Positions 15,924 to 60,400 of a stretch of DNA of 64,000 nucleotides are shown piece by piece. The stretch is from Lingula anatina (taxonomy: Eukaryota > Animalia > Brachiopoda): the NCBI GenBank assembly GCA_051362555.1, contig CM120648.1, positions 6,630,587 to 6,694,586 on the forward strand, given 5' to 3'. Both the position numbers and the translations under genes were made by a program. A model generated the notes under the pieces. That model saw only the letters and a program-made list of their open reading frames with translations. It did no database searches and was not told where the DNA came from. How positions within the stretch are numbered: the stretch's first letter is position 1; each line of letters begins with the position of its first letter.

Positions 15924-16544
15924 TTTTGGAGGGGGGAGCATTCTGAATCCAACAATGAATAAAGGTTCCTTAGGCAGCAGAGCAAAAACAACATTCAAAT
16001 ATTTCGAAGTCTTACATATTCTCCCTAATTTTTGGTCTTCCTTGATTTCTGATCAGAAAGTGTATTATATTATCTATAGCTTGACGTTCGTCTATCATTT
16101 CGCGAATTGCTGCAGAGATTAGTAGTACGTTCATTTCCGCTCGTTAATAAAATTGGTAGGAAGTGTGTCATCTGTAATTGTTTTCTTTTTATTAAGGGTG
16201 TCATCACTTTAGGTGTACTGAACACATTTGTTAATGCTTCAGTGTCATATTCGTATTTCTCAATATCCTACAAAGCCGTTAATATCCCAGACCTTCAGAT
16301 CTTAATCGATAACACTCCCTTACGTAAAAGTATCTGAGGTAGATATTTCCTTCTAAAATGCCCCCAAAAAAATCCAATGGTCCAAATGTCTGGTCAGCAT
16401 TGAGATTTAAATCATTAATTTAACAATTGTATAATTAAACCATCGAATCCAAATGCGGGACGGTGATGATCCTTGTGTATTTAGAAGAAGAATGCTTTTT
16501 ACTGAGGCTTATTCAATTTGGCGCGAAATCCAAGACAGAATACC

Positions 16545-16602
<58 letters not shown>

Positions 16603-16986
16603 ACACTAGCACCAAGATATTTTATGTACAAAATAATGATAAGATACATTTCCTTGCTTTTGTGTCTTAATTCGCTATCATTTTTTTTAGTTGCATTCCT
16701 ACTTTCATGGTCACCGTACGCCATAGTCTCGCTTTGGGCTGCGTTCGACGATCTTCGGCACATTCCGCCCACTTCCGATGTCATCCCGGCATTACTCGCC
16801 AAGGCTTCGGTGATTTGGAATCCAATCATTTACGTTGCCATGAACCAGCAGTTTAGAGAAGGGTTTTTACAGTTTATAGGACGTGATATCGGCAGAAGAC
16901 AGCACGTGGCTGCAGCGACACGAAGTTCGAGACCTAGGCCAACTATTTTAAATAGCAATGGACAAAGTACGACGATATCCTGTTAG
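14492..16986 (+). CDS. Opsin (xenopsin-like), 3' partial: last two coding exons (ICL3-TM6-TM7-C-tail)
   Basis: Exons 14492-14606 (IKNSHQPSASTGKNSSGKFSRRKRKRQTKMLKMIIAMT, phase-1 GT donor) and 16691-16986 (VAFLLSWSPYAIVSLWAAF...PALLAKASVIWNPIIYVAMNQQFR...stop) join in frame across a GT-AG intron. TM6 WxPY, the TM7 retinal-binding Lys, NPxxY and NxQFR are present. TM1-5 exons were not found in the window. Confidence 0.9.
14876..15078. mobile_element. PIF/Harbinger (Tourist)-like MITE in opsin intron
   Basis: Termini gggcgtattcccagag / ctgggaatggggtc flanked by TAA on both sides (14873-75, 15079-81). Near-identical to the copies at 26391-26835. Confidence 0.75.
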
Positions 16987-28400: not shown

Positions 28401-31400
28401 CTTTTAATGGGAGTTTAATTCCAGTACCTGTATTGGGTATTTTGGTTTATACAGACTCTTCAATTAACAGCATAACATTTAATGAATATAAAATAGTTTT
28501 TTTGTTTCATTTTTATCTTGTTTGAGCACGGTTGCAAGTGTCGGTGTCATGTTAAATTACGTGCAGTGTAGTGCGTCTGTCAGAACAAGTAGGTCTTGTG
28601 ATTATCAAGGAAGAAAAGCTGCTTCTTATGTGTTTTTTTTTCAGCAAAGTTGTATTTCAAAATATATATCACTAATTGATGTATATGTATCTAGAAATAA
28701 CCGCATTGGTGTTGTTTTAGGGGAGGTTGAGATACAAACGATTTAAGCGTTACGTTCACACAAATAGCAAATTGTCGATTCCACTGAGAGACATCAAATA
28801 GTACCTTGTAAATCATTATATTCTCATATTCATGTTTTGAATTGCATATAAGTAATTTGGTGTCCTTCTTGACAATAAATTATAATGAACTCTCATTTTA
28901 TTTGAAATCAGTAGAGTATACATCTAAAAAGTGCCTATTTTGACAATGTACGTATTTTGGCAAGACGTCGGAACCCAGCGGACGGTTTGAAAATACAGCA
29001 TGCTGCCCCAGAAAATTATCCACAGGCAATGTGGCAATGTGGAGCCGATCGACCTACATGTTACAAAACAGTGAAGCAGTTAACATATACCAAATAATTA
29101 ACTATTTTTATACAGACTACTGTTTAACTAAAATGAAAGGGAAACGGCGTGTAACAGTTGTAATGACCCAAGCGTTACATGCATATCGGTAACGATATAT
29201 TTGAATGCAAGGGCAAGCTGTAGCGATCGCGAACATGAACGTGCGCTACCAAAAGGAAGCCTTCCGCACCCGTGTATTCAGCTTTTATTGCTTGTTCTTA
29301 TTTGGCTTTATCCTCTTTTCTTCTTTTTCCAGCTCTTTGCCTTGCTGGTGAACGACCAGCTGAGGGCCGCGCTATGTGGGTGCTATCAGGACCACGACCA
29401 GCTTCGCCACCTAGTGGCAATAATGGATTTAAAAGTGGAAAACCTAGTGAAAAGTCATTTGCGCCTCAAACAATGGGAAGCCGATTTCTCCCGAACCCCT
29501 TTGGTAATATGGCACCGAAACCGTTTGGACCAAAAGTGAATAATGGTATGTTTATTTAAACACTGCCTTTCGGTTATAAATGTTTCATTCAATAATTTTT
29601 TATCATATTAATACATATCCTTTTGAAGGGACGGATTGCGTTGACAGATCTAGCCTTATGTGATGTCTCACTTCCCTTCACCAGGAGTTGGAAGGACGCT
29701 GCCTCCTATGAAACCACTGACGGACATTTGTGAGACGCTCCCCGATAAGTGCCCCGTTTTTCCGCCAGAGGCCCCAACGATCTGCGCCTCGGATGGGAAC
29801 GAATACCCGTCCACGTGAGTAAAAGGCTTTGGTCAACAAGTGCTTATTGGGTGTCAGTAGTTCTCTTCTTGCGCTTAGTCTGGAGGAAACAATAAACCAG
29901 ATTGGATCGTCAAAAGGTCTTGGATCGACATAAGATTGCACAAAAAGTTTACTGGTTATATTTCAATTCTTTGTTTTCCCCTCAATTTTGAAAAACTGGA
30001 TGAGCATTCTACACTCATTTTCACCAAAAAGCACTTCATTGTGAAATGCAATATATATATTTAATATGTTAATAAATACTTTAATAATCGTTTCAACTCA
30101 TCCGGATCCAAAACTCAAGTATTGCATCATTCTCTGCAGACAATATAAGTTACTACTATATTTAATTCTTTACACCTAGATGCGACCTGCTAAAAGCAAA
30201 CTGTGATTCTGAAGACGACGTGTACCGCGTTCCCTGCAAAGACGAAGCACCCTTCTTCAAACCAAGCGTGACGCTGTTTGGCGGCAAAAAGCCTTTCAGC
30301 AACGGCGGACCGCCACCTTTTAGCGGCGGTTCTCCAGGCTTTGCTCTTAGCGTGGTAACAGATTTCAGGCCAAGCGTAGAGATCGAGTGTGGCTCGCTGC
30401 CTGAGTGTCCCCTAGCAAAGGAAGGGACGCCTGAGTTGTGTGCGTCAGATGGCAAGACGTACACTTCCCAGTAAGTTGGGTGATTGCATGGGTAGAGAAG
30501 GTGGCACAGGAATGGTATTCAGCCATTAACCGTAGTCCTTTTCCCAGTTCTCGTTCAATTGACTTTCGCCCGATTAAGGCCCCTACTTTAGCTCACTCTC
30601 ACCTGTACTAATTATAGGCCTATGGACCCTGGGCTTCCATTCTCAGGACTACAGTTCGCCACACAGGCTTGGCATGGAACAACCGCTCTTAACATACTCT
30701 TTGTACTTGACAAATATTCAATAAAAAATAATAATAATTGAGCATTTATGAAATCAAAATGAAATACTGACAATTTTGGTCGACACAATTCATTCGACAA
30801 AATGAATTACAAAAAATAACCACGCGTCGCTGTCTCATTTCAGATGTGAACTGGAGAAAGCGAACTGTGCCTCGGACACGAAGATATGGCCCGTCCGTTG
30901 TGCAGGCACCGCGTCATCTAGCGGTTTTGGGCAGCCTGGTCCCGTCCCTCCGCCAAGATGGCCGGCTCCAGGCGACAGGTGTGAGATGTTACCGGAAGTG
31001 TGCCCAGAGTTCCCGGATGGACTTCCGGAAATCTGTGGATCTGACGGGAACACGTACTCTTCACCGTGAGTATTTTCCGTAAATAGATGTTGACCATTAG
31101 AAAAAGGACTCCATATTTGTGTCATACATGCACGCCCCATTCATCCACCCTACCACTATCACTTTGTAGTACTGATTACGGGAAACATGTCTCCGTTGGA
31201 ATCCTTAGAAGCACTAAATGTACATGTATATGGGGAGGCAAGACCCCGCCCTACCAGACTCCCCTTCCCCCTGACAACATTATTTATTATACTACTTTTT
31301 GGAACTTTCTGTAAAAATTTTCGCTTTTTTATTCTATTTTTAGTTGTGAACTGGAGAAAGCAAACTGCGCCTCCGATACAAAAATATGGCCGGTCCGTTG

Positions 31401-34400
31401 TGAGGGCGATGATGAGACATTCCCACCTGGACTCTTTCCTCCTCCTGTGAGACCGCCAATGGAAGACATATGTGAGATGTTACCGGAAGTGTGCCCAGAG
31501 GCACTGGATGGACTTCCGGAACTGTGCGGATCTGACGGAAGGACATATTCCTCGCCGTAAGTGTTATATACGTCACTGGCAAATGTGGTACGACCCCACA
31601 GTCAATCCCATTCAGCACAACTGAGTCCATTAAACACATGCTTCTGATGATGACCTTTGAGAGCATTCACACCGAGAAGAGCTGAGATCTAGCAAGGCCG
31701 AGACCTAAATATGGCGGACCTACATGAAAGGAAGACTGCGTAATCCTTTAATGGTCTCTCAATGACATGTTGTTTGCCGATAATGACATTCATTGAGAGA
31801 CCATTACAGGATTATGCGGTCTTCCTTTCATGTACGTCCGCCATACTTAGCTAGGTCTCGGCCTTGCTAGACCTCGGCTCTTCTCGATGTGATTGCTCTC
31901 TTTGAGAGCCTTTTCCCTTTTTGGAAAGAGATTTGTGGGAGTGAGAAAATTTGTCATTTCATACCTGTATAAGTAACAATGACAAACTCTCTTCTTTCTT
32001 GATGTGTTGAGCAGCTTACAACCTTGAGCCAACATATGATACTGCATTTGTTTAGGAAACTTTGGAACCAGATGTGATGTGCGAAACTTTTCTTTTTTCA
32101 ACATTCAGATGTGAACTGCAGAAGGCGAACTGTGCCTCCGATACAGGAATATGGCCGGTCCGTTGTGAGGGCGACGATGAGCCATTCCCACCCGGACTCT
32201 TTCCTCCCCCTCTGAGACCGCCAATGGAAGACATATGTGATATGTTACCGGAAGTGTGCCCAGAAGCAAGGGATGGACTTCCGGAACTGTGTGGATCTGA
32301 CGGGAAGACATATTCCTCGCCGTAAGTGTTATGTATCACTGGCGCAGTCAACCCTATTTTGAACAACAGAGACCTTTAAACACATGCTTCTGATGGCCTC
32401 TGAGAGTCTTTCCCCTCTTTGGAAATAGATTGATGGGAGATAGAAAATCTGTCATTTCAAATTGGAAACAGCGACACACACCCTTTTTCTCTTGTTGTGT
32501 TGAGCAGCTTACAACCTGAAACCAACCTATGATACTGCATGCATTAGTTTTGAAAATTTTGGAACCATTAAATGTGATGCGCAGAACCTTTTCTTTTTTA
32601 AACTTTTAGATGTGAAATGCAAAAAGCCAACTGTGCCTCAGACATAAAGATAAGGCCCGTCCGTTGTGAGGGCGACGATGATGCATTCCCACCCGGACTC
32701 TTTCCTCCCCCTCTGAAACCGCCTATGGAAGACATATGTGAGATGTTACCGGAAGTGTGCCCAGAGGCGCCGGATAGACTTCCGGAACTGTGTGGATCTG
32801 ACGGAAAAACATATTCCTCACCGTAAGTACTTTATACAGCACCTACATTGACCCTATTGAGAATGTCCTCATTCTTAAGTCACTTTTAATCGCGTGTTGC
32901 GATATGTAACTTTAAAGTTACAATATATGGAAACGACCGTCACGCCACACACAGATGGTACCTAAAACGGCTGATTCTATTTTATATGAACTTCCTTAAC
33001 ATTGCGTCTTCTTCTGCGCATTCTTCTGCGCATTATATTGAGTAATAGGACGACCAGCCTGCAGCAAATGGAAGATGCATTACTTTACTTACAGGTGTGA
33101 ATTCCAAAAGGCAGGGTGCGCCTCGGATGTCAAAATATTCCTGGTCCCATGCGAGGGTTCTGACCCGTTCAAGGGACGCCCCCCTCCCCCTTATCCCGGT
33201 GATGGCTTTAAACCGCCCTTTTCGGAAGAACTCTGTGCCACTCTCCCTGAAAGTTGCCCTCTGGCACCGGAAGGGGCTCCGGAAGTATGTGGTTCGGATG
33301 GAAACAAATATGAATCTCGGTGTGTAATTTTGTATTTTTTTTTATTACCATTGTGATAATTATGCTTTTACAAGAGTCTGTGTTTTCGAGAGAGAGAGAG
33401 AGAGAGAGAGAGATTTTGAAACATTATTCACAACCATGTAAATTAGATACTGATACAGAAACTAAATTATTTTTTCTTGTAATCTGACCGTGCACCTCTT
33501 ACGTAAAAATTATGCTACTCACCGTAATTTTCAATAATCTTAACATTAAACCCTCTCCCCTTCAAATGCGCTATTGCTCCCCTTTTTGGACGTCTTGATT
33601 AATAAAAACTGTACATTTTTCTTTTCCTTTCTTTTGCTAAAGGTGTGACCTGATGAAAGCAGTCTGTGCCTCTGAGGGCGATATCTACCCAGTGCCTTGC
33701 GACACGGACTTGCCAATCTTACAGCCACGCCCCAGGCCACGCCCTATGCTACGCCCCATGCCTCGCCCCTTTTTCTTAAACGGACCTCCTTCAGTCCCGG
33801 GGGGAGACGGTAAGTGTTCTTTATGCTGTCTTTTCTATCGCAGGAACGGATCAAAATTCTTTATATTCCTTTTTTTTCATTATTTCAGTTACGTAGCCTG
33901 TGTCAAATGCACCATTCCATACTTTCAAATTCTGAATTTTTAACTTTAACATATTTTGCAACACAGTTTTCTTTCATTAATATTTGTTACACGTACACAA
34001 ATGTTCCACGATATAAAATTTATTCTGCTAATTTATTCTGAATATATATTTCTTTTGAAGGTCCTGCTATCGAGATCTTGCCAGAGGATAAGTCACCAAA
34101 CGCTGCTTCCCGGGTAACAGGCGGCATCATCGCTCCGTTCGGTCGCATTGGACAAAAATCAACTTTAGCAGGAGGACCGACTGGCCGATTTGGTTTTCTC
34201 CCATCAGCAGTTCAAACGCTCCAAAATCGTCCTAGAGGTCCGGCTTACGGTTTGGCGTCCAGTGGAAGCCAAAGTTCACGACAGTTTCCTGCGGGTATTT
34301 TTCCGTCTTCCGCTGGTGGGAAATATGGCCTGCCCAAGTCCATGCAGGGCTACGGGGCTGGCGGGAATTCCGCTCCAAAGCCACAACCTCGTTTTGGAGT

Positions 34401-44959: not shown

Positions 44960-45253
44960 ACATTACTACTTGCCGGCTAAAGTGGGAGTTTCTCCTTCCT
45001 GTAAAAATGGCGGAAATTACCCACAGTTCATTTCGACAATTTTCGTTAGTGTCCGGCATTGTGCACTGATTCTTCTATGTACGTTTCCCTCAAACAGTGA
45101 CATAACTTATATGTTAAACTGAAATAAACAGAACATTCGTTTTTATGAATTGTTAGTTAAAAGAGTAAGTCTGAAAATAAAAGTTAAAAAGCAGAGTTAC
45201 GAAGATTCCCGAAGAATTAGCGCATGCGCTTCCTCTCACACTCTGCCGCCATC
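44960..45253. promoter_or_regulatory. Bidirectional promoter AP2M1/RPL22 with YY1-like, NRF1-like and TCT/TOP elements
   Basis: AAAATGGCGG at 45004-45013, GCGCATGCGC at 45220-45229, then a pyrimidine tract (cttcctctc) typical of ribosomal-protein TCT starts. A minus-strand donor gtgagt near 44956-44961 is the putative end of the AP2M1 non-coding exon 1. Confidence 0.6.
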
Positions 45254-46883
45254 ATGCCTGCTGTAAGTGGCAAAGTCCTCTCAAAATTTTGTCTAATTCT
45301 CTAATGAAAACTCATTATACAACCTTTTGCCCACTGTTTTATAAAACCTAAACTAGTTTTGTAAATGATTCAAAAGAGTTTTGAGTCCAAAACAGCTTGC
45401 TTTATTACGTAATTTTGACTGAATGAGCAGACACGTGTTCATATGGCTGTTCCTGTTGAACATATTTTCAGTGAGATTACGTGCCGATTCTTTTGTTTTA
45501 TTCCATAACATCATTGTCGCTCTACATTTGTAATCCATGATTAGCATGTTGTTAATTAAATATGCAACTTCATGTTGTAATAAATTAAAAAATCTAGACT
45601 TGACTGGTCTTGTAAGTTCTGTGTGTGTTTGTGTGTGCGGGGGAAGGGGGTGGTGAAAGGAGAGATGGGCTAAGGAAAGGCATATTGGTACAGGCTCTCA
45701 AATGCCTTACTGAGGTTAAATATCTTTAAAGTGAAAGTTGAAATTGAAAAATAATGTCATTGCATTTCTTGTCTTTTCTTTTTCAGACAGCAAAAAAGGG
45801 CCAGCAGAAAAACCCCAAGGGTGGTAAGAAGAAGAAGTCGATAATCAGGTATTATCTGGACTGCACGCACCCCGTAGAAGATGGCATCATGGACATCACA
45901 AACTTTGTAAGTTGATTGCTAAAATCTTGGATTTTTTTGGGGGTAAGACATATAAATGTTGTGAATTATAATTAATAGAAACCGAAAAAAAAAACTGTTT
46001 AAAAAGGGGGATTTTGTCATGTCGTCGGCCAGTGTATCTCATTGTTTTGTTATCTATGGAGACTAATATGCCAAAGTGGGCTAGGGTCACATTCCCTAGT
46101 CCTGATACCTCTAGGGCTCCATTCCCTAGAGTCTGGGTTAGGGCCCTCTTCCCTAATCCCTTTTTTCTTTTGCTCCATCCCAACAGGACAAGTACCTGCA
46201 GGAAAGGATCAAAGTGAACGGCAAGACTGGCAACCTGGGCCAGAACATCTCCATGGAAAGGCAGAAAAATAAAGTTGTTGTCACCAGTGATATCCCACTG
46301 TCTAAGAGGTAATGCATCCATGGACCTTTGTAGTATCTCTTCCTCTTTTTCTCCATAGTTGTATACTTTTTAATAGTAATATTTTTTTTCTTTTGTTTTT
46401 ACTATAACAATAATTACTATTATCTTGCACATTAGACATAAGAAGTTAGCATTTTCCCCCTCAGATATTCCAAAGATAGATATTTCTTTTTAATGTTTAT
46501 TATGTCTAAAAAATAACTTGATAATCTCTTGTTATATAAGTCTGCTTGTGGAAAAGCCTCAAATTTTAGATTCCGAGAAACCAAGACCTACATAGTAATA
46601 TTTTAATGTGCTTAAATTTCCAGAGTATTTGGTGAAAGGAAGAGAAGCATGGGTTTAAGTTGTGTATTATGTTTTAACTGCTAATCAAGCCTTTTAAACT
46701 TCTAAATGTTTGGATTTTTTTCTTTTGTTCAGGTACATGAAGTATCTCACCAAGAAGTACCTGAAGAAGAACAACCTCCGTGATTGGTTGAGAGTTGTCG
46801 CCAGTAGCAAGGACACTTACGAGCTGCGCTACTTCCAGATCAACAATGAAGAGGAGGAAGAAGAGGAGGCGGAAGACGCATAA
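45254..46883 (+). CDS. RPL22: 60S ribosomal protein L22 (eL22), 133 aa, 4 exons
   Basis: Exons 45254-45262, 45787-45906, 46187-46308, 46733-46883. Motifs [62 protein letters not shown] and an acidic tail. Confidence 0.97.
46078..46159 (+). promoter_or_regulatory. Three tandem RNA hairpins in RPL22 intron 2 (candidate eL22-binding splicing element)
   Basis: ctaggg-tcacatt-ccctag, ctctaggg-ctccatt-ccctagag and gggttaggg-ccctctt-ccctaatcc. Each has a G-C closing pair and a 7-nt loop ending in U. Confidence 0.6.
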
Positions 46884-51600: not shown

Positions 51601-53323
51601 AAACCGCAGTTTAAAGTATATCCCAGTTTAGTGTGCTGTAAGCCTGTAACAAATGTACCTGTATTTGATTGATGTGAGGCACACATGAAAATGAGGCCAC
51701 CCTTACAAAAACAAGGTTAAACAAATGGAGATTGTAATCAATTCACCTGCTAACCGCCATAGCAATGGTTGCCGTCATCAGCAGTTGCAGCGGCGGCTGA
51801 GTTTCTTCCATCCCACAGTCAAGGGCAAACTGTCGACTGCTTGCAAGTAGCGAGTTGCAATAAAAAGAAGAATTCCAAAGCTTCGAAATAGCCGGGTCAA
51901 TGGTCAATTCATGCGGGGTTCTGATTGGTTCATCTCGTCTCCATCGTTTGAATTTTGATTGGTTGCCTGGAGCCCAGCGTGCACGTGCCATGTCGTCATC
52001 AAAAAATAGTTCTGGTTTTGATGCCAAACTAGCTGTGGCAAACGCAGCCTGAGGTTGAAGGTGCTCTCCATCGTAGTCTGCTTTTGATAGAAAAGACGAA
52101 AGATCGGGTGTGGTTCGAAACAGTGGTTGGCCACTTGTTTGCTGGGGAAGCGATATTTGCTGGAAGCCAGGAGATTTGTTCTTTAATGAAACAGTTCTTG
52201 TTTCATTAGTGGCCTCTTCTAAAGGCAGAGCAACCGTTTCTTGAACAGGTGCGGATTTGTGCGGGCCTTGAGCCTTCACCTGATCGTATTCAGTCTCTAG
52301 GCTGGCCATCCTCAGGATATTTTCTGCTTTTTTGAACAACGGTGGTCCAAGCATAACTCCACTTTGTTGGTGATGCGGATAATACATGTTGATACCGCCA
52401 TTTTCTTTCATGTGAACAATGTCGCGACTGTGGTTCATCTCACGGAACGACCGAGAGAAGACTCGGTTGAGGATCACCGCCTGGGCAGGCGTCAAAGCAA
52501 ACCCGCCGCTGCAGCCGATTTCTTTAGCCTTTTGAGATAATTTTTCTAGGCCAGAAAAGTCACCAAGTAGAACGTAAATACCCCATATCATCGGCAAGGA
52601 TGCAGCTCTGGTCGCCAAGAGAACATCTTTCATGGCGTGAAACATTGTTTCTCCAACAAAATCTGCTTGGACATCATTCCCAAAATCATAAGTCCCCAGC
52701 GAAATAATTGCATGTCTCGTGACTCCTGATTGGACGAGTTCATGGCAGTTAGCCACGCCCTGTGCTGTCTCAAGAATAGGGAAGAAACGAAAGTGGTTTT
52801 CGGGGAGGTTTTTCTGTGTTTCTTGGCATGCTGCTAGGCGGGTATACTCTTGCAACTCGACCTTGTACGATAACTTCGGCAGCACGTATCCGGTTAGGTT
52901 TTGGTGGGAGAGGGACTCGAAATCCTTCACCGTTTCCTCGTGAGCTTCTCCAATCGAGCTCGTGCGCACGTAGAGAGGCTGAGGAAGGTTCCACTGCTGG
53001 ATGAACCTGGCGGCTGCCTCTCTCGTGGCGTCTTTTTCGTCAATTGGTACGCTGTCCTCCATATCGAGGATGTAGACGTCAGCGTTCTGAAACTTCACCT
53101 TTCCTGACGTCACGGTTTTTCTGTCCATGAACATGACGCTCCTGCAGGGGGCGTGGTTCCGGTTGTGAGCGGCTGAGGTCTTAGATGTTCCAAGCGGCCC
53201 AGGTGGCCCTGTGCCCGCGCTGTTAGAACGGTGGTATCGGGCATGGTCGTTGTACCTCCTGACGGCCGCGTTGACACACCTCAAATGCAGCCCACTTCGA
53301 ACTTTGGACGTCGCTGCAAGCAT
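48614..53323 (-). CDS. Fusion of CitE/HpcH-HpaI (malyl/methylmalyl/citramalyl-CoA lyase-type) domain and double hot-dog MaoC-like (mesaconyl-CoA hydratase-like) domain, probable mitochondrial presequence (~814 aa, 8 exons)
   Basis: Exons 51747-53323, 51236-51518, 50852-50923, 50244-50345, 49719-49850, 49447-49507, 48993-49117, 48614-48706. All introns are GT-AG and phase-consistent (2445 nt). Lyase motifs: RSVMF, ILDMEDSVP, LYVR, VLPK, PILETAQG, LGTYD, ALTPAQ. Hot-dog motifs: SSRQFALDCG, LGFQNAQQLRPIKGGETV, TNEHHLN, LLVPGPLV, GDMI. Arg/Ala/Ser-rich N-terminus with almost no acidic residues. Confidence 0.88.
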
Positions 53324-54034
53324 TTTCACACTTTAACTGGAGCTTCTTTCGGGGTTGTATGTACTCTTCTTTACTCCGGTATACTTATACTGGTACCTTA
53401 AAAAGAAAACATTCGAACACTCTTTCTAAACATGGCGGAAAATCTTACAGGACATCACTCCTCATTCCAACATATATCAGGCCAAATATGGAAAAATATT
53501 ATATTCAGTCAGTTCTGCTTAAAGTTCAGAATACTTTACTCATAGGACTACCTTATACATAAGTTATTTCACGCCTGAGGAAGAGGCACGCTAAGACCAG
53601 GAGCTCAGGGTATTCGTCAGAAAGTTAAGTTTCAGAAACCTTGTGAACTTCAATCTATATAATCTAAAATCAAGCAAGACTCCATGGGATTAAGAGGAGA
53701 GCAGAGTCAAAAATACCGGCCGTCTGGGTTACCTTTATGCTGACAACTGACCATTGATTTATTTTACGTTATTTAAGAGGCATTCACTGGCAGCTCATGG
53801 CAGCTACTAGCACATGTTGACAGCAGTTTGTATGATAAGGCAATTTAATAGTAGTAGTAGTAGTACATGTAAATATATTTCTACTATGCTTATTCACTCT
53901 TGTGTCCTGGTATTACTGCTATGCTATATAATAATAATAATAATAATAATTTTATTAACGTCTCACGTTTTAAATAAATAAAACCCACCCTGCTAAGGGT
54001 TATGAGAGACTATATATGACTGGGTTTCCACTTA

Positions 54035-57559: not shown

Positions 57560-60400
57560 CCCAGACAGCCTCAGTGATCTGGCCCACGTCTGGCCCAGAT
57601 CTGGCAACGTCTGGCAAAAGGTATGGCCCACGTACGGCTTGCCACATGTGGGCCAGATGTGGCAATGTTTGGGCCAGATCTGGCCCAGACATTGCCACAT
57701 CTGGCCCAGTCCACATTTGCTCATATGGCCAGATGTCGGCCCAGATCTGGCAATATCTGGCAAAGGTATGGCATGCCAGATGTGGGCCAGATGTGGGCCA
57801 GATCATATTCAAATGGGCCAGATTAGGGCCAGACATGGACCACATATGGCCCAGAATGTTTTTTTTCTCTTTTTTTTAAATTATTTTTAATTATTCAATA
57901 AGATTACTATAAACAAAGACATACAAGATTCAAGATTCAAGTATTTATTCTGTGCTAAAACCCTTAACAAAGTTATTACACATTATATAACCTTGCTGGC
58001 AACTAACATGTAACAAATTAAGGGTCACTCCTTGTCTTTTTGTACAAAACAATGTATATATGAAAAAAAAAAATACACTGCAAAAAGGCAAATATACAGA
58101 CACAGGAGGAAATGTCACTTACATACATGTAAAGAAAACAGTTATAACAACAATTTTTTTTCAACACAAAGCTGCTCATCGAATCTGAATTAACACAAAT
58201 TACAAAAATTGTAATTAATTATGCATGTACATGGGGGAGGGGTTTGAGGGGGAAATATTTTTGCACACCTCAACCTAAATAATATTATACATTGTCATTT
58301 TTAAACTAATTCAAACATATCATTAATAATAATAATCACTAATGAATATAGTTTTGTAATGAATAAATCTTGAATAATGAATGAAAAAACATTGTTTTTT
58401 TTAGATGATGGCGAGTTATAACAAAATTATAAATAACCATGCAGTAACTGTTTCAATTCAACTTGCATGCTGGCTACAGTACTGTACATACATGTAAATT
58501 CTGAAAAAAAAATATGTATACTCCAGCACAGATATAGATGTACAATTAAAAGAGAATTACATGTGCACAAAAACAAACCCCAGTATCAATGCTTTTGAAT
58601 TAAATCACATCATGAATCAAATCACTCAATGAATTGAACCAGTTTGCAATGTTTGCGCTTTTTTCAAATCCATAACACTAAGAAATGATACATCCGGCTC
58701 CTTTACACGCTTATAATTATTAAAGGAATCAACAATATGAAACAAGTAACTCTACCAAGTTAACAACAGTTCATTCAAATGTCAAGTCAAAACACAACTT
58801 CCCTTCCTTTCTTGGAGAGAAATGGCCCTTTCAAAACATGTTTATTGACAGTTCAGTCTTTAAAATGTCCTTTCAAACATTTGAAGAATAGCATATGAAC
58901 TCCAACTTTTATTCCTTAAACCACACTGAAAATTCTCAAAACTTATCAACTCATATCAAATCCCATGTCCTTTCACTACTACTGGTCTCTTCCTTTACGT
59001 CACATTCAAATGTTCCCTTCACTTTTAAAGGTTTCTCAGACGTGTATGAATAATACTGTTTGTTTTCTAGTCCTCCACGAGAGCCACATTTATTTTTCTT
59101 GGATTTCAGCATTCTCCATGTATTTTCATCAATGATATTACAATATGCACCTGAATCTGGTAATACACTGAGATTAACACCGCCTCTATTTCCTCCATGT
59201 CTTCTGTGTATATTGCATTGGTTCCCACACCAAATGTATATGCACTCCTGGATTATCATGTTCAAAGCTGTCATTTACATGAATAATAGTTTCAGTTTTG
59301 CAGACTTTTGCAAAGTGATCCAACGTTCCATGTTTTCTCAGTCAGGGAGTTTCTACTTCGTTTTTCATGTCTAAACTCGTAATGTTTAGACTGGCTTGGT
59401 TTGTCAAATGACTTCGGTTTCATCATACTCACAGTTTCTGGTGTTCCAATTTCATTCAAAGCGTTAACTGTCTAATGTATATTCATGTTTCTAACCTGTG
59501 TTTGGGAGAGTCCTGAAAATATCTTGTACACCTGTCCCTGCTGAATACAACATTAGCGCGTGTCTCCTCTGACATGTATTTTTAATTTTCTATCTTTGTT
59601 CATTATTCATGCCGTCCGTTGGTTTTGAAAAGATCCATCTTTTCCGTCAGCGAAGAGGTTTAAACTGTCTAGCCATCGCGTCGAGCGTGACCCTAATGTC
59701 TCCGGACTTCTGTACGGTTCGAATTCCGTAATTTCACATTTTTCCTCCATTTTTTCAAAGAAAGTTGGCTCACAGTTTTGCACTAGTGTTAATACTCGTC
59801 TCCAGTGTTGATGCCTTCGAAATAAATCGCATCACGAATCAAATCACTCAACCAAATGTATCAGTTTGATACGCTTGTGCTTTTTTCATATCCATAACTC
59901 TAAGAAACGCTACATCCGGGTCCTTGACCGGCTTAGCATAAAAAGCGGAATCTTACAACAGCGGAACGAGTAGTTCAAAAAAGTTTTAGAACAGTGAATT
60001 CATTCAAATGTCAAGTCAAATTAAACAAATAGCACACTTATGAGGGGACTTTGAAGAAAAGAGAGAGAGATAAATTAAATCAAAATTTATCAAATGACGT
60101 CAGTTCAATGCATTCAGTTCACTGGTCAATAAAAAATAAATAAATAGAAAATAAAAATTGAAAATGAAAGTACCATATCTGGCCCAAGTCTGGGCAGCAT
60201 CTGGCAAAATGTGGCATAAATGCCAGACTTTGCCAGACTTTGCCCAGATCTGGCAAGTGTCTGGCAAAATGTGGCATAAATGCCAGACTTTGCCAGACTT
60301 GGCCCAGATCTGGCAAGTGTCTGGCAAAATCTGGCAAAGATATTGCCAGACGTTGCCAGATCTGGGCCAGACGTGGGCCAGATTACTGAGGCTGTCTGGG
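57560..60400. mobile_element. Non-autonomous CACTA/EnSpm-like DNA transposon (CCCAG termini, 2-bp AA TSD)
   Basis: 58-bp TIRs with one mismatch (cccagacagcctcagt(g/a)atctggcccacgtctggcccagatctggcaacgtctggcaa). Arrays of ~10-11-bp subterminal repeats (ggcccagatct-like) at 57575-57855 and 60172-60385. AA on both flanks. Confidence 0.8.
58584..60027 (-). mobile_element. Internally deleted, decayed Gypsy-type LTR retrotransposon
   Basis: Diverged direct repeats ~59806-60027 and ~58584-58796 (LTRs). PBS-like TGGAGACGAG at 59795-59804. Gag remnants (ATG 59750; LGSRSTRWLDSLNLFADGK, QRRHALMLYSAGTGVQDIFRTL). Protease remnant VLPDSGAYCNII...PLKVKGTF. Polypurine tract AAGAAAGGAAGGGAAG at ~58798-58813. 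Confidence 0.8.

What the first reader, a model, noticed from the sequence alone, without database searches (positions are those of the whole stretch)
46078..46186. Three eL22-type hairpins occluding the predicted branch point in RPL22's own intron: candidate splicing autoregulation
Seen: three consecutive stem-loops with (c/t)taggg/cccta(g/a) stems and 7-nt loops (ucacauu, cuccauu, cccucuu), ending ~27 nt before the intron-2 acceptor at 46185-86. The 3' arm of hairpin 3 contains a branch-point-like CCUAAU (46152-57). The loops vary in sequence, but stems, loop length and terminal UU are retained. Known: eL22 binds hairpins with a G-C closing pair and a U at the 3' end of the loop (EBER1/SELEX consensus), inhibits splicing of its own introns in yeast and regulates RPL22L1 in mammals. 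Inference: excess eL22 stabilises these hairpins, blocks U2 access and causes intron retention or upstream acceptor use followed by NMD. This would be a multivalent feedback switch that I am not aware of being described in spiralians.
Basis: partly seen in the sequence, partly recalled or inferred. Interest (0 to 1): 0.8.

Follow-up and report, generated by a model that had tools for sequence, protein, structure and literature searches.

The report
Ancient eL22 self-limiting splice switch
An intron of this brachiopod's ribosomal protein L22 gene carries three small RNA hairpins, also found at the same spot in other animal-like L22 genes and resembling one in human RPL22L1, and a few transcripts keep this region or splice into it, so surplus L22 protein likely binds the hairpins and diverts its own message into a dead-end form.

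Summary
Real and conserved. The three G-C-closed, U-ended 7-nt-loop hairpins are present as described in intron 2 of the RPL22/eL22 gene (Lingula anatina, a spiralian). A motif-only metagenome scan returned 118 loci; 6 lie in RPL22 intron 2, just upstream of exon 3, with compensatory stem changes. One library's contig splices exon 2 to a poison acceptor inside hairpin 1 (46085; stop at 46097); raw reads show low intron-2 retention, while introns 1 and 3 show none. New detail: two branch-point-like motifs recur, one in the last hairpin's 3' arm (7 of 7 genes) and one 17-20 nt upstream of the poison AG (6 of 7). A human RPL22L1 intron-2 primer carries the same hairpin core; there RPL22 binds and promotes an upstream, unproductive acceptor. 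Best reading (0.75): the ancestral, self-regulating form of that switch. eL22 binding, dose response and NMD are untested here. The mechanism is known in mammals; I found no paper on invertebrates in five searches. This scan reported the same element earlier on other DNA (annelid, arthropod-like, vertebrate).

The parts
45241..45262 (+). RPL22 exon 1 (short pyrimidine-rich leader; ATG at 45254)
   Evidence: read ends pile up at 45241-45245 and the joint 45262>45787 is seen in 4 of 4 runs
45787..45906 (+). RPL22 exon 2 (phase-0 end)
45907..46186 (+). intron 2; retention would give a stop at 45913-15; 5' half differs by indels between haplotypes
46061..46067 (+). upstream branch-point-like GACUAAU (A at 46066, 19 nt before the poison exon start)
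   Evidence: YURAY 17-20 nt upstream in 6 of 7 genes; use as a branch point is inferred
46078..46102 (+). hairpin 1 (9 bp, G-C closed, loop UCACAUU)
46083..46084 (+). poison 3' splice site AG in the 5' arm of hairpin 1; 102-nt extension from 46085
   Evidence: X1 contig 2 joins the exon-2 end to 46085 (tables 5, 5c, 8); read-start arithmetic in X8 and X10 fits
46097..46099 (+). in-frame UAG in the 3' arm of hairpin 1, 209 nt before the last exon junction
46109..46131 (+). hairpin 2 (8 bp, loop CUCCAUU)
46135..46159 (+). hairpin 3 (9 bp, loop CCCUCUU); its 3' arm holds CUAAU 46153-57, branch-like A 46156
   Evidence: 5-mer predicted unpaired with P = 0.002
46160..46186 (+). pyrimidine tract and canonical acceptor CAG
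46187..46308 (+). RPL22 exon 3
46733..46883 (+). RPL22 exon 4, coding part (3' UTR reads run to about 47230)

Best explanation
The three hairpins at the 3' end of RPL22 intron 2 are a conserved element that likely binds free eL22 protein and would thereby divert the gene's own pre-mRNA into stop-codon-bearing forms predicted to be removed by NMD. Shown: the structure (fold plus covariation), its fixed position in 7 genes, a transcript spliced to an AG inside hairpin 1 that stops after 4 codons, and low intron-2 retention. Inferred: when eL22 is scarce, U2 opens hairpin 3 and branches at A46156, giving the normal mRNA (the large majority of reads). Surplus eL22 locks the hairpins and hides that branch point. 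The spliceosome then either stalls (retention) or branches at A46066 and takes the first AG (46083-84). Because each 5' arm is YUAG/GG and the loop is 7 nt, the complementary 3' arm supplies UAG/UAA/UGA in frame. This is likely the ancestral, self-directed form of the mammalian RPL22-to-RPL22L1 switch.
For: Motif-only scan: 6 of 118 loci are RPL22 intron-2 ends, sense strand, with exon 3 only 45-70% identical to the window; the L021 exon hits eL22 in the PDB at E = 1.9e-15. 17 hairpin units: 92.4% of cells paired versus 81.6% shuffled; 5 of 9 pairs change on both sides; covariation score 0.36, 0 of 500 shuffles as high. Outer pairs not fixed by the pattern: 39 of 48 paired in RPL22 loci versus 416 of 896 in other loci. 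Three further hairpins outside the pattern match also fit the L22 consensus. Branch A in 7 of 7 last hairpins versus 3 of 11 others (Fisher p = 0.004; 0.011 without the near-duplicate L058), kept even where unpaired (L048, L058, L105). Upstream YURAY in 5 of 6 independent genes (p = 0.02 for a 15-40 nt window, 5e-4 for 15-25). RNA: poison joint in X1; depth just before exon 3 is 6.8%, 0.3%, 1.1% and 0.9% of exon depth in X2, X3, X8 and X10; introns 1 and 3 have zero depth in 4 of 4 runs. Haplotype variants in the element: 4 in 30 loop or linker positions, 1 in 52 stem positions and that one keeps the pair as U-G (p = 0.057), while the intron's 5' half no longer aligns in X8 and X10. Human: an RPL22L1 intron-2 primer reads GGG + 7-nt loop ending UU + CCCUAG; RPL22 CLIP peak and two stem loops at the variant-3 site; L22 depletion lowers the non-coding isoform; the zebrafish rpl22l1 NMD isoform rises in upf1 mutants.
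Against: No binding, perturbation or NMD data in any invertebrate. The poison joint is listed in one contig of one small library only; no raw-read run (X2, X3, X5, X8, X10: 0 of 5) lists it as a joint, and X3 has almost no reads over the hairpins. The poison AG is itself predicted paired (P unpaired 0.009), so locking hairpin 1 should hinder its use; local melting must be assumed. The search was motif-first, so the inner 4 pairs, the loop length and UU are fixed by selection in 12 of the 14 non-window units, and there is no denominator (how many animal RPL22 genes lack it). The human product is reported as 63-64 aa with a frameshift, so its acceptor is not placed as here (47 aa). One CLIP study saw no RPL22 peak on RPL22L1. 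Gene copy number in this genome is unknown, so 'self' versus 'paralog' is assumed. Zero depth in introns 1 and 3 is informative only for runs carrying the window-like allele (X2, X5).
Confidence: 0.75

Rival explanations
1. Loop-out model: the upstream branch point (A46066) serves the productive acceptor; folded hairpins hide the internal AGs and shorten the distance to the real one, and the poison AG is used when hairpin 1 opens. eL22 would then be neutral or favour productive splicing.
For: The upstream YURAY is conserved and more accessible (P unpaired 0.09-0.64 versus at most 0.04 for the last-arm motif); all internal AGs are predicted paired.
Against: It does not explain the selective retention of A in the last hairpin's arm at -28 to -39 (7 of 7); in human cells RPL22 promotes the proximal, unproductive acceptor.
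Confidence: 0.12
2. The hairpins are a conserved structural damper of splicing, or are read by another RNA-binding protein; the fit to the loose L22 consensus is incidental.
For: The L22 consensus (G-C closing pair, 5-9 nt loop, 3' U) is loose; yeast Rpl22 uses an unrelated element whose loop is irrelevant; no binding was tested here.
Against: The element sits in the gene of the very protein whose consensus it matches, in 7 of 7 cases found, and the human look-alike is RPL22-bound and RPL22-responsive.
Confidence: 0.09
3. Chance local duplication, a mobile-element end, a telomere-like or G-quadruplex tract, or an intronic small RNA.
For: The stems resemble TTAGGG/CCCTAA; five GGG runs in the window; 112 of 118 scan hits are unrelated, many of them tandem repeats; no genome-wide count was possible.
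Against: Same intron position in distant genes with compensatory changes; only 2 GGG runs in L048, L058 and L105, too few for a quadruplex; no Rfam match; no other copy in 64 kb.
Confidence: 0.03

Closest known systems
Human RPL22L1 intron-2 switch (variant 3 / exon 3A / RPL22L1b / non-coding variant), controlled by RPL22 (bioRxiv 2024.08.15.608201; bioRxiv 2023.12.29.573614; PMC12035866; PMC11057873)
   Same: Same intron number, tandem L22-consensus hairpins at an upstream alternative acceptor, premature stop. The one human stretch I could see (a primer) has the same GGG-N5UU-CCCUAG core, with a loop identical to that of L105 hairpin 2.
   Different: There it is cross-regulation of a paralog with two reported stem loops and a 63-64 aa frameshifted product; here three hairpins sit in the (presumed single) RPL22 gene and the stop comes after 4 codons (47 aa). 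The full human intron was not available, so positional homology of acceptor and branch points is untested.
MDM4 intron-6 cluster of three L22 stem-loops (bioRxiv 2023.12.29.573614)
   Same: Three juxtaposed consensus hairpins; binding and splice effect shown by deletion, mutation and RIP.
   Different: Downstream of a 5' splice site, causes exon skipping in an unrelated gene; not feedback.
L10ARE autoregulation of RPL10A/rpl-1 (PMC4937301)
   Same: A ribosomal protein binds a cross-phylum conserved intronic element in its own pre-mRNA and switches to an NMD isoform.
   Different: Different protein, a 39-nt element between alternative 5' splice sites; here tandem hairpins and alternative 3' sites.
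Yeast RPL22A/B intronic splicing inhibition (PMC4838235; PMC13630204)
   Same: Rpl22 limits splicing of its own family's introns.
   Different: Long stem with internal loop, loop sequence irrelevant, branch point still recognised; no apparent structural homology.

Membership tests
eL22-binding hairpin (EBER1/SELEX consensus) | Stem closed by 5' G - 3' C | tested here: met
   3 of 3 window hairpins; definition as quoted
eL22-binding hairpin (EBER1/SELEX consensus) | Loop of 5-9 nt with a 3'-terminal U | tested here: met
   7-nt loops ending UU; 3 of 3 unselected extra hairpins in L021, L040 and L060 also fit
eL22-binding hairpin (EBER1/SELEX consensus) | Binds eL22 | not testable with these tools
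   needs EMSA or CLIP
RPL22L1-type intron-2 splice switch | Tandem consensus hairpins at the 3' end of intron 2 of an eL22-family gene | tested here: met
   window plus 6 loci
RPL22L1-type intron-2 splice switch | Upstream acceptor overlapping the hairpins, giving a premature stop | tested here: met
   X1 contig joint to 46085, stop at 46097; one library only, raw-read support indirect
RPL22L1-type intron-2 splice switch | Same acceptor register as in human | tested here: inconclusive
   human product 63-64 aa with frameshift versus 47 aa here; human intron sequence not seen
RPL22L1-type intron-2 splice switch | Isoform ratio depends on eL22 level | not testable with these tools
   no perturbation data
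Ribosomal-protein AS-NMD autoregulation (L10ARE type) | Unproductive isoform stabilised by loss of NMD | not testable with these tools
   stop lies 209 nt before the last junction; shown only for zebrafish rpl22l1
Ribosomal-protein AS-NMD autoregulation (L10ARE type) | Regulator is the gene's own product (no paralog in between) | not tested
   no genome held
Intronic snoRNA/miRNA or other Rfam family | Match to a family model | tested here: not met
   7 weak matches, all far below gathering scores

The most novel reading that the evidence does not exclude
A single ~17-nt hairpin unit, kept across bilaterians since before the vertebrate RPL22/RPL22L1 duplication, does four jobs at once: it is the eL22 landing site, its 5' arm is a poison acceptor, its 3' arm is the in-frame stop fixed by the 7-nt loop, and in the last copy that arm is the productive branch point. 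eL22 thus chooses between two branch points, and the cancer-relevant RPL22-to-RPL22L1 control is an inherited autoregulatory loop.
Probability: 0.5. Interest if true: 0.75.

Novelty: new variant of a known kind. Interest (0 to 1): 0.62.

Why it matters
Gabunilas and Chanfreau (PMC4838235) left open whether Rpl22 paralog repression is conserved or convergent. A conserved element in the pre-duplication gene of a brachiopod and other animals would show that the mammalian RPL22/RPL22L1 switch, which matters for RPL22-mutant cancers and Pol I inhibitor response, descends from self-regulation. It also supplies a much sharper natural eL22 motif (YAGGG-N5UU-CCCUR) than the SELEX consensus, and a testable two-branch-point mechanism for how eL22 moves a 3' splice site.

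Tried and rejected
No whole genome is held, so no genome-wide repeat count and no paralog check. Rfam: nothing. The look-up of sequencing runs listed no indexed RNA holder; raw-read runs were laid instead. The spliced window protein was not searched against a protein database, so its name rests on its translation agreeing with motifs and primers quoted in PMC3750023 and on its 70% exon-3 identity to L021, which hits eL22. I asked whether L048/L058 might be non-bilaterian: the best hit is a bryozoan eL22 at 76% (2 hits among 14 candidates, weak), so no claim beyond Bilateria; the other four loci are unassigned. The human intron-2 sequence could not be obtained: three papers were not held, the Weinstein supplement has no sequence, and bioRxiv supplements and figure images (Fan Fig. 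S6A, Jansen Fig. 4E,F) were not seen and bear on the homology claim. G-quadruplex, telomere-like and mobile-element readings were rejected. A sequence look-up in earlier findings gave nothing. A search on cryptic species in Lingula gave nothing usable. The AGs in the 3' arms (46098-99, 46128-29) and the donor-like site at 45943 were not seen used.

Full report
OBSERVATION. The gene has four exons (ATG 45254-62, 45787-45906, 46187-46308, 46733-46883; 133 codons), and all three joints are seen in RNA. It is RPL22/eL22: the translation agrees with the lysine-rich RNA-binding motif and primer-encoded stretches quoted in PMC3750023, and exon 3 is 70% identical to that of locus L021, which hits eL22 in the PDB at E = 1.9e-15. 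A neighbouring ORF is 99% identical to a Lingula anatina protein, so the window is from a brachiopod, a spiralian. The three hairpins (46078-46102, 46109-46131, 46135-46159) fold as described (z = -2.66, 2 of 200 shuffles). The motif occurs 3 times in 64 kb against 0.19 expected. Rfam has no match.

Each 5' arm is YUAG/GG, an acceptor consensus. Intron 2 is phase 0 and the loop is 7 nt, so splicing to any of these AGs reads four codons and then meets the stop formed by the 3' arm (47 aa in all three cases). A second branch-point-like motif, GACUAAU (46061-67), lies 19 nt before the exon start that hairpin 1's AG would give.

RNA EVIDENCE. Six of the 10 listed runs were laid (X1, X2, X5, X8; X2, X3, X8, X10). 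In X1 one contig (word depth 5.8 against 16.3 for the normal joint; a poor measure of level) carries 30 nt of exon 2 joined to the intron: joint 45907>46088 with two letters between, which reads as 45906>46085 with a variant at 46087. That is the AG in hairpin 1. None of the 5 raw-read runs lists this joint. Depth steps do fit reads starting exactly at 46085 in three columns (X8+ 3 reads, X10+ 3, X10- 1; chance about 1%, 1% and 7% each if starts were uniform), but not exactly in X8- or X2-; I treat this as indirect. Reads continuing from exon 2 or from upstream intron show retention (loose ends in X3 and X10). Depth just before exon 3 is 6.8% (X2), 0.3% (X3), 1.1% (X8) and 0.9% (X10) of exon depth, and about 0.3% over the hairpins in X5. 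Introns 1 and 3 have zero depth in 4 of 4 runs, which is informative for the runs with window-like alleles. X3 has retention reads at the 5' border but none over the hairpins, which I cannot explain beyond small numbers. X8 and X10 carry a diverged haplotype: the intron's 5' half does not align, while 46024-46186 does. Of 5 variants seen in the element, 3 are in loops, 1 in a linker and 1 turns U-A into U-G (p = 0.057).

CONSERVATION. All 118 were tested against the exons; 6 (L021, L040, L048, L058, L060, L105) encode RPL22, and in each the hairpins lie on the sense strand within 140 nt of the exon-3 acceptor. L048 and L058 are near-identical, leaving 5 independent genes, 45-70% identical to the window in exon 3. 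L058's best hit is a bryozoan eL22 (weak); the others are unassigned. The pattern fixed the inner 4 pairs, the loop length and UU in 12 units, so only the rest is evidence. Outer pairs 5-8: 39 of 48 paired versus 416 of 896 in the other loci. Across 17 aligned units (16 distinct; the 6-nt-loop hairpin of L040 was left out), 5 of 9 pairs change on both sides and the covariation score exceeds 500 of 500 shuffles and all slid controls (relatedness inflates such counts). Three extra hairpins outside the match also fit the L22 consensus. All 17 hairpins with an AG in the 5' arm give a stop within 5 codons, partly by construction of the pattern. The scan is motif-first and says nothing on how many RPL22 genes lack the element.

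TWO BRANCH POINTS. The last hairpin's 3' arm has CURAN with its A at -28 to -39 in 7 of 7 genes; first and middle hairpins have that A in 3 of 11 (p = 0.004; 0.011 without L058). In L048, L058 and L105 a U-A to C-G change keeps both the stem and a CUGAY motif, with the A left unpaired, so the A is not kept for pairing. A YURAY lies 17-20 nt upstream of the first poison AG in 5 of 6 independent genes (L040 lacks it there); chance is 0.02 for a 15-40 nt window, smaller for narrower windows chosen after the fact. The last-arm motif is predicted buried (P unpaired at most 0.04), the upstream one more open (0.09-0.64). That either is a real branch point is inference.

MECHANISM. Likely: low free eL22 lets U2 open the modest hairpin 3 (-11.6 kcal/mol) and splice normally. 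Surplus eL22 binds the loops and locks them; the intron is retained or branches upstream and uses the first AG; both products carry early stops well before the last junction and would be NMD targets. The weak point is that the poison AG is itself in a stem (P unpaired 0.009); a loop-out rival with the opposite sign follows from this, but conflicts with the human direction of effect.

COMPARISON. [quoted passage not shown] Passages of bioRxiv 2023.12.29.573614 show L22 depletion lowering the non-coding isoform and three L22 hairpins working in MDM4. PMC12035866 passages confirm RPL22-dependent exon 3A but found no CLIP peak. PMC7354994 passages show the zebrafish rpl22l1 NMD isoform rising without upf1. 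PMC4838235 and PMC13630204 passages describe an unrelated yeast element; PMC4937301 passages give the L10a precedent; PMC3750023 passages describe an exon-2 hairpin in zebrafish. The 1995 SELEX paper was not read; its consensus is taken from these quotations. Figures and preprint supplements with the human sequence were not seen.

NOVELTY. It works like the human switch and meets the sequence-level membership tests; binding, dose response and NMD are untested. Five full-text searches (listings and abstracts only, open-access library) returned no paper on this element in invertebrate RPL22. This scan has noted it before on other DNA (e1-7276603, e1-7500687, e1-9994503, AI notes, seen after my own scan and lays). 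Verdict: new variant of a known kind, interest 0.62.

Noticed in passing
window 51743-53332 (-): Uninterrupted 529-codon frame with an HpcH/HpaI aldolase/citrate lyase domain; 99% identical to Lingula anatina LOC106166744, and the only other hits were a Lingula paralog (36%) and one unnamed 294-aa protein. A bacterial-type enzyme in a long exon: possible horizontal origin, untested.
   Followed up: partly
window 16435-16986 (+): Exon-like stretch matching 7tm_1 (E = 5e-5, below the curated cut-off); looks opsin-like by eye (recalled motif, not tested).
   Followed up: partly
window 45231-45253 (+): Pyrimidine-rich, 5'TOP-like leader; read ends cluster at 45241-45245.
   Followed up: no
window 45940-45948 (+): Donor-like GGG/GTAAGA inside intron 2; no joint from it was seen.
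   Followed up: partly
window 45918-46024: Other haplotypes (X3, X10) carry different, longer sequence in the 5' half of intron 2; X8 and X10 reads are mostly 90-99% alike in exons under the same species label, suggesting a diverged population or cryptic species.
   Followed up: no
window 57639-57781, 60230-60350 and about 31004-32761: Recurring short palindromic units (TTGCCAGA...TCTGGCAA type) and a second recurring unit with roughly 500-nt spacing; long TA microsatellites at 2190, 3933, 16549 and 57408.
   Followed up: no
L021 (oriented, between hairpins 2 and 4): A fourth, non-consensus hairpin with a 12-nt loop sits among the three consensus ones.
   Followed up: no
L003, L027, L042, L043, L067, L072, L113, L117 and others: Many non-RPL22 scan hits share a repeated AAGGGGACGCTTCCCT-like palindromic unit in bacterial-looking contigs, REP-like.
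   Followed up: no
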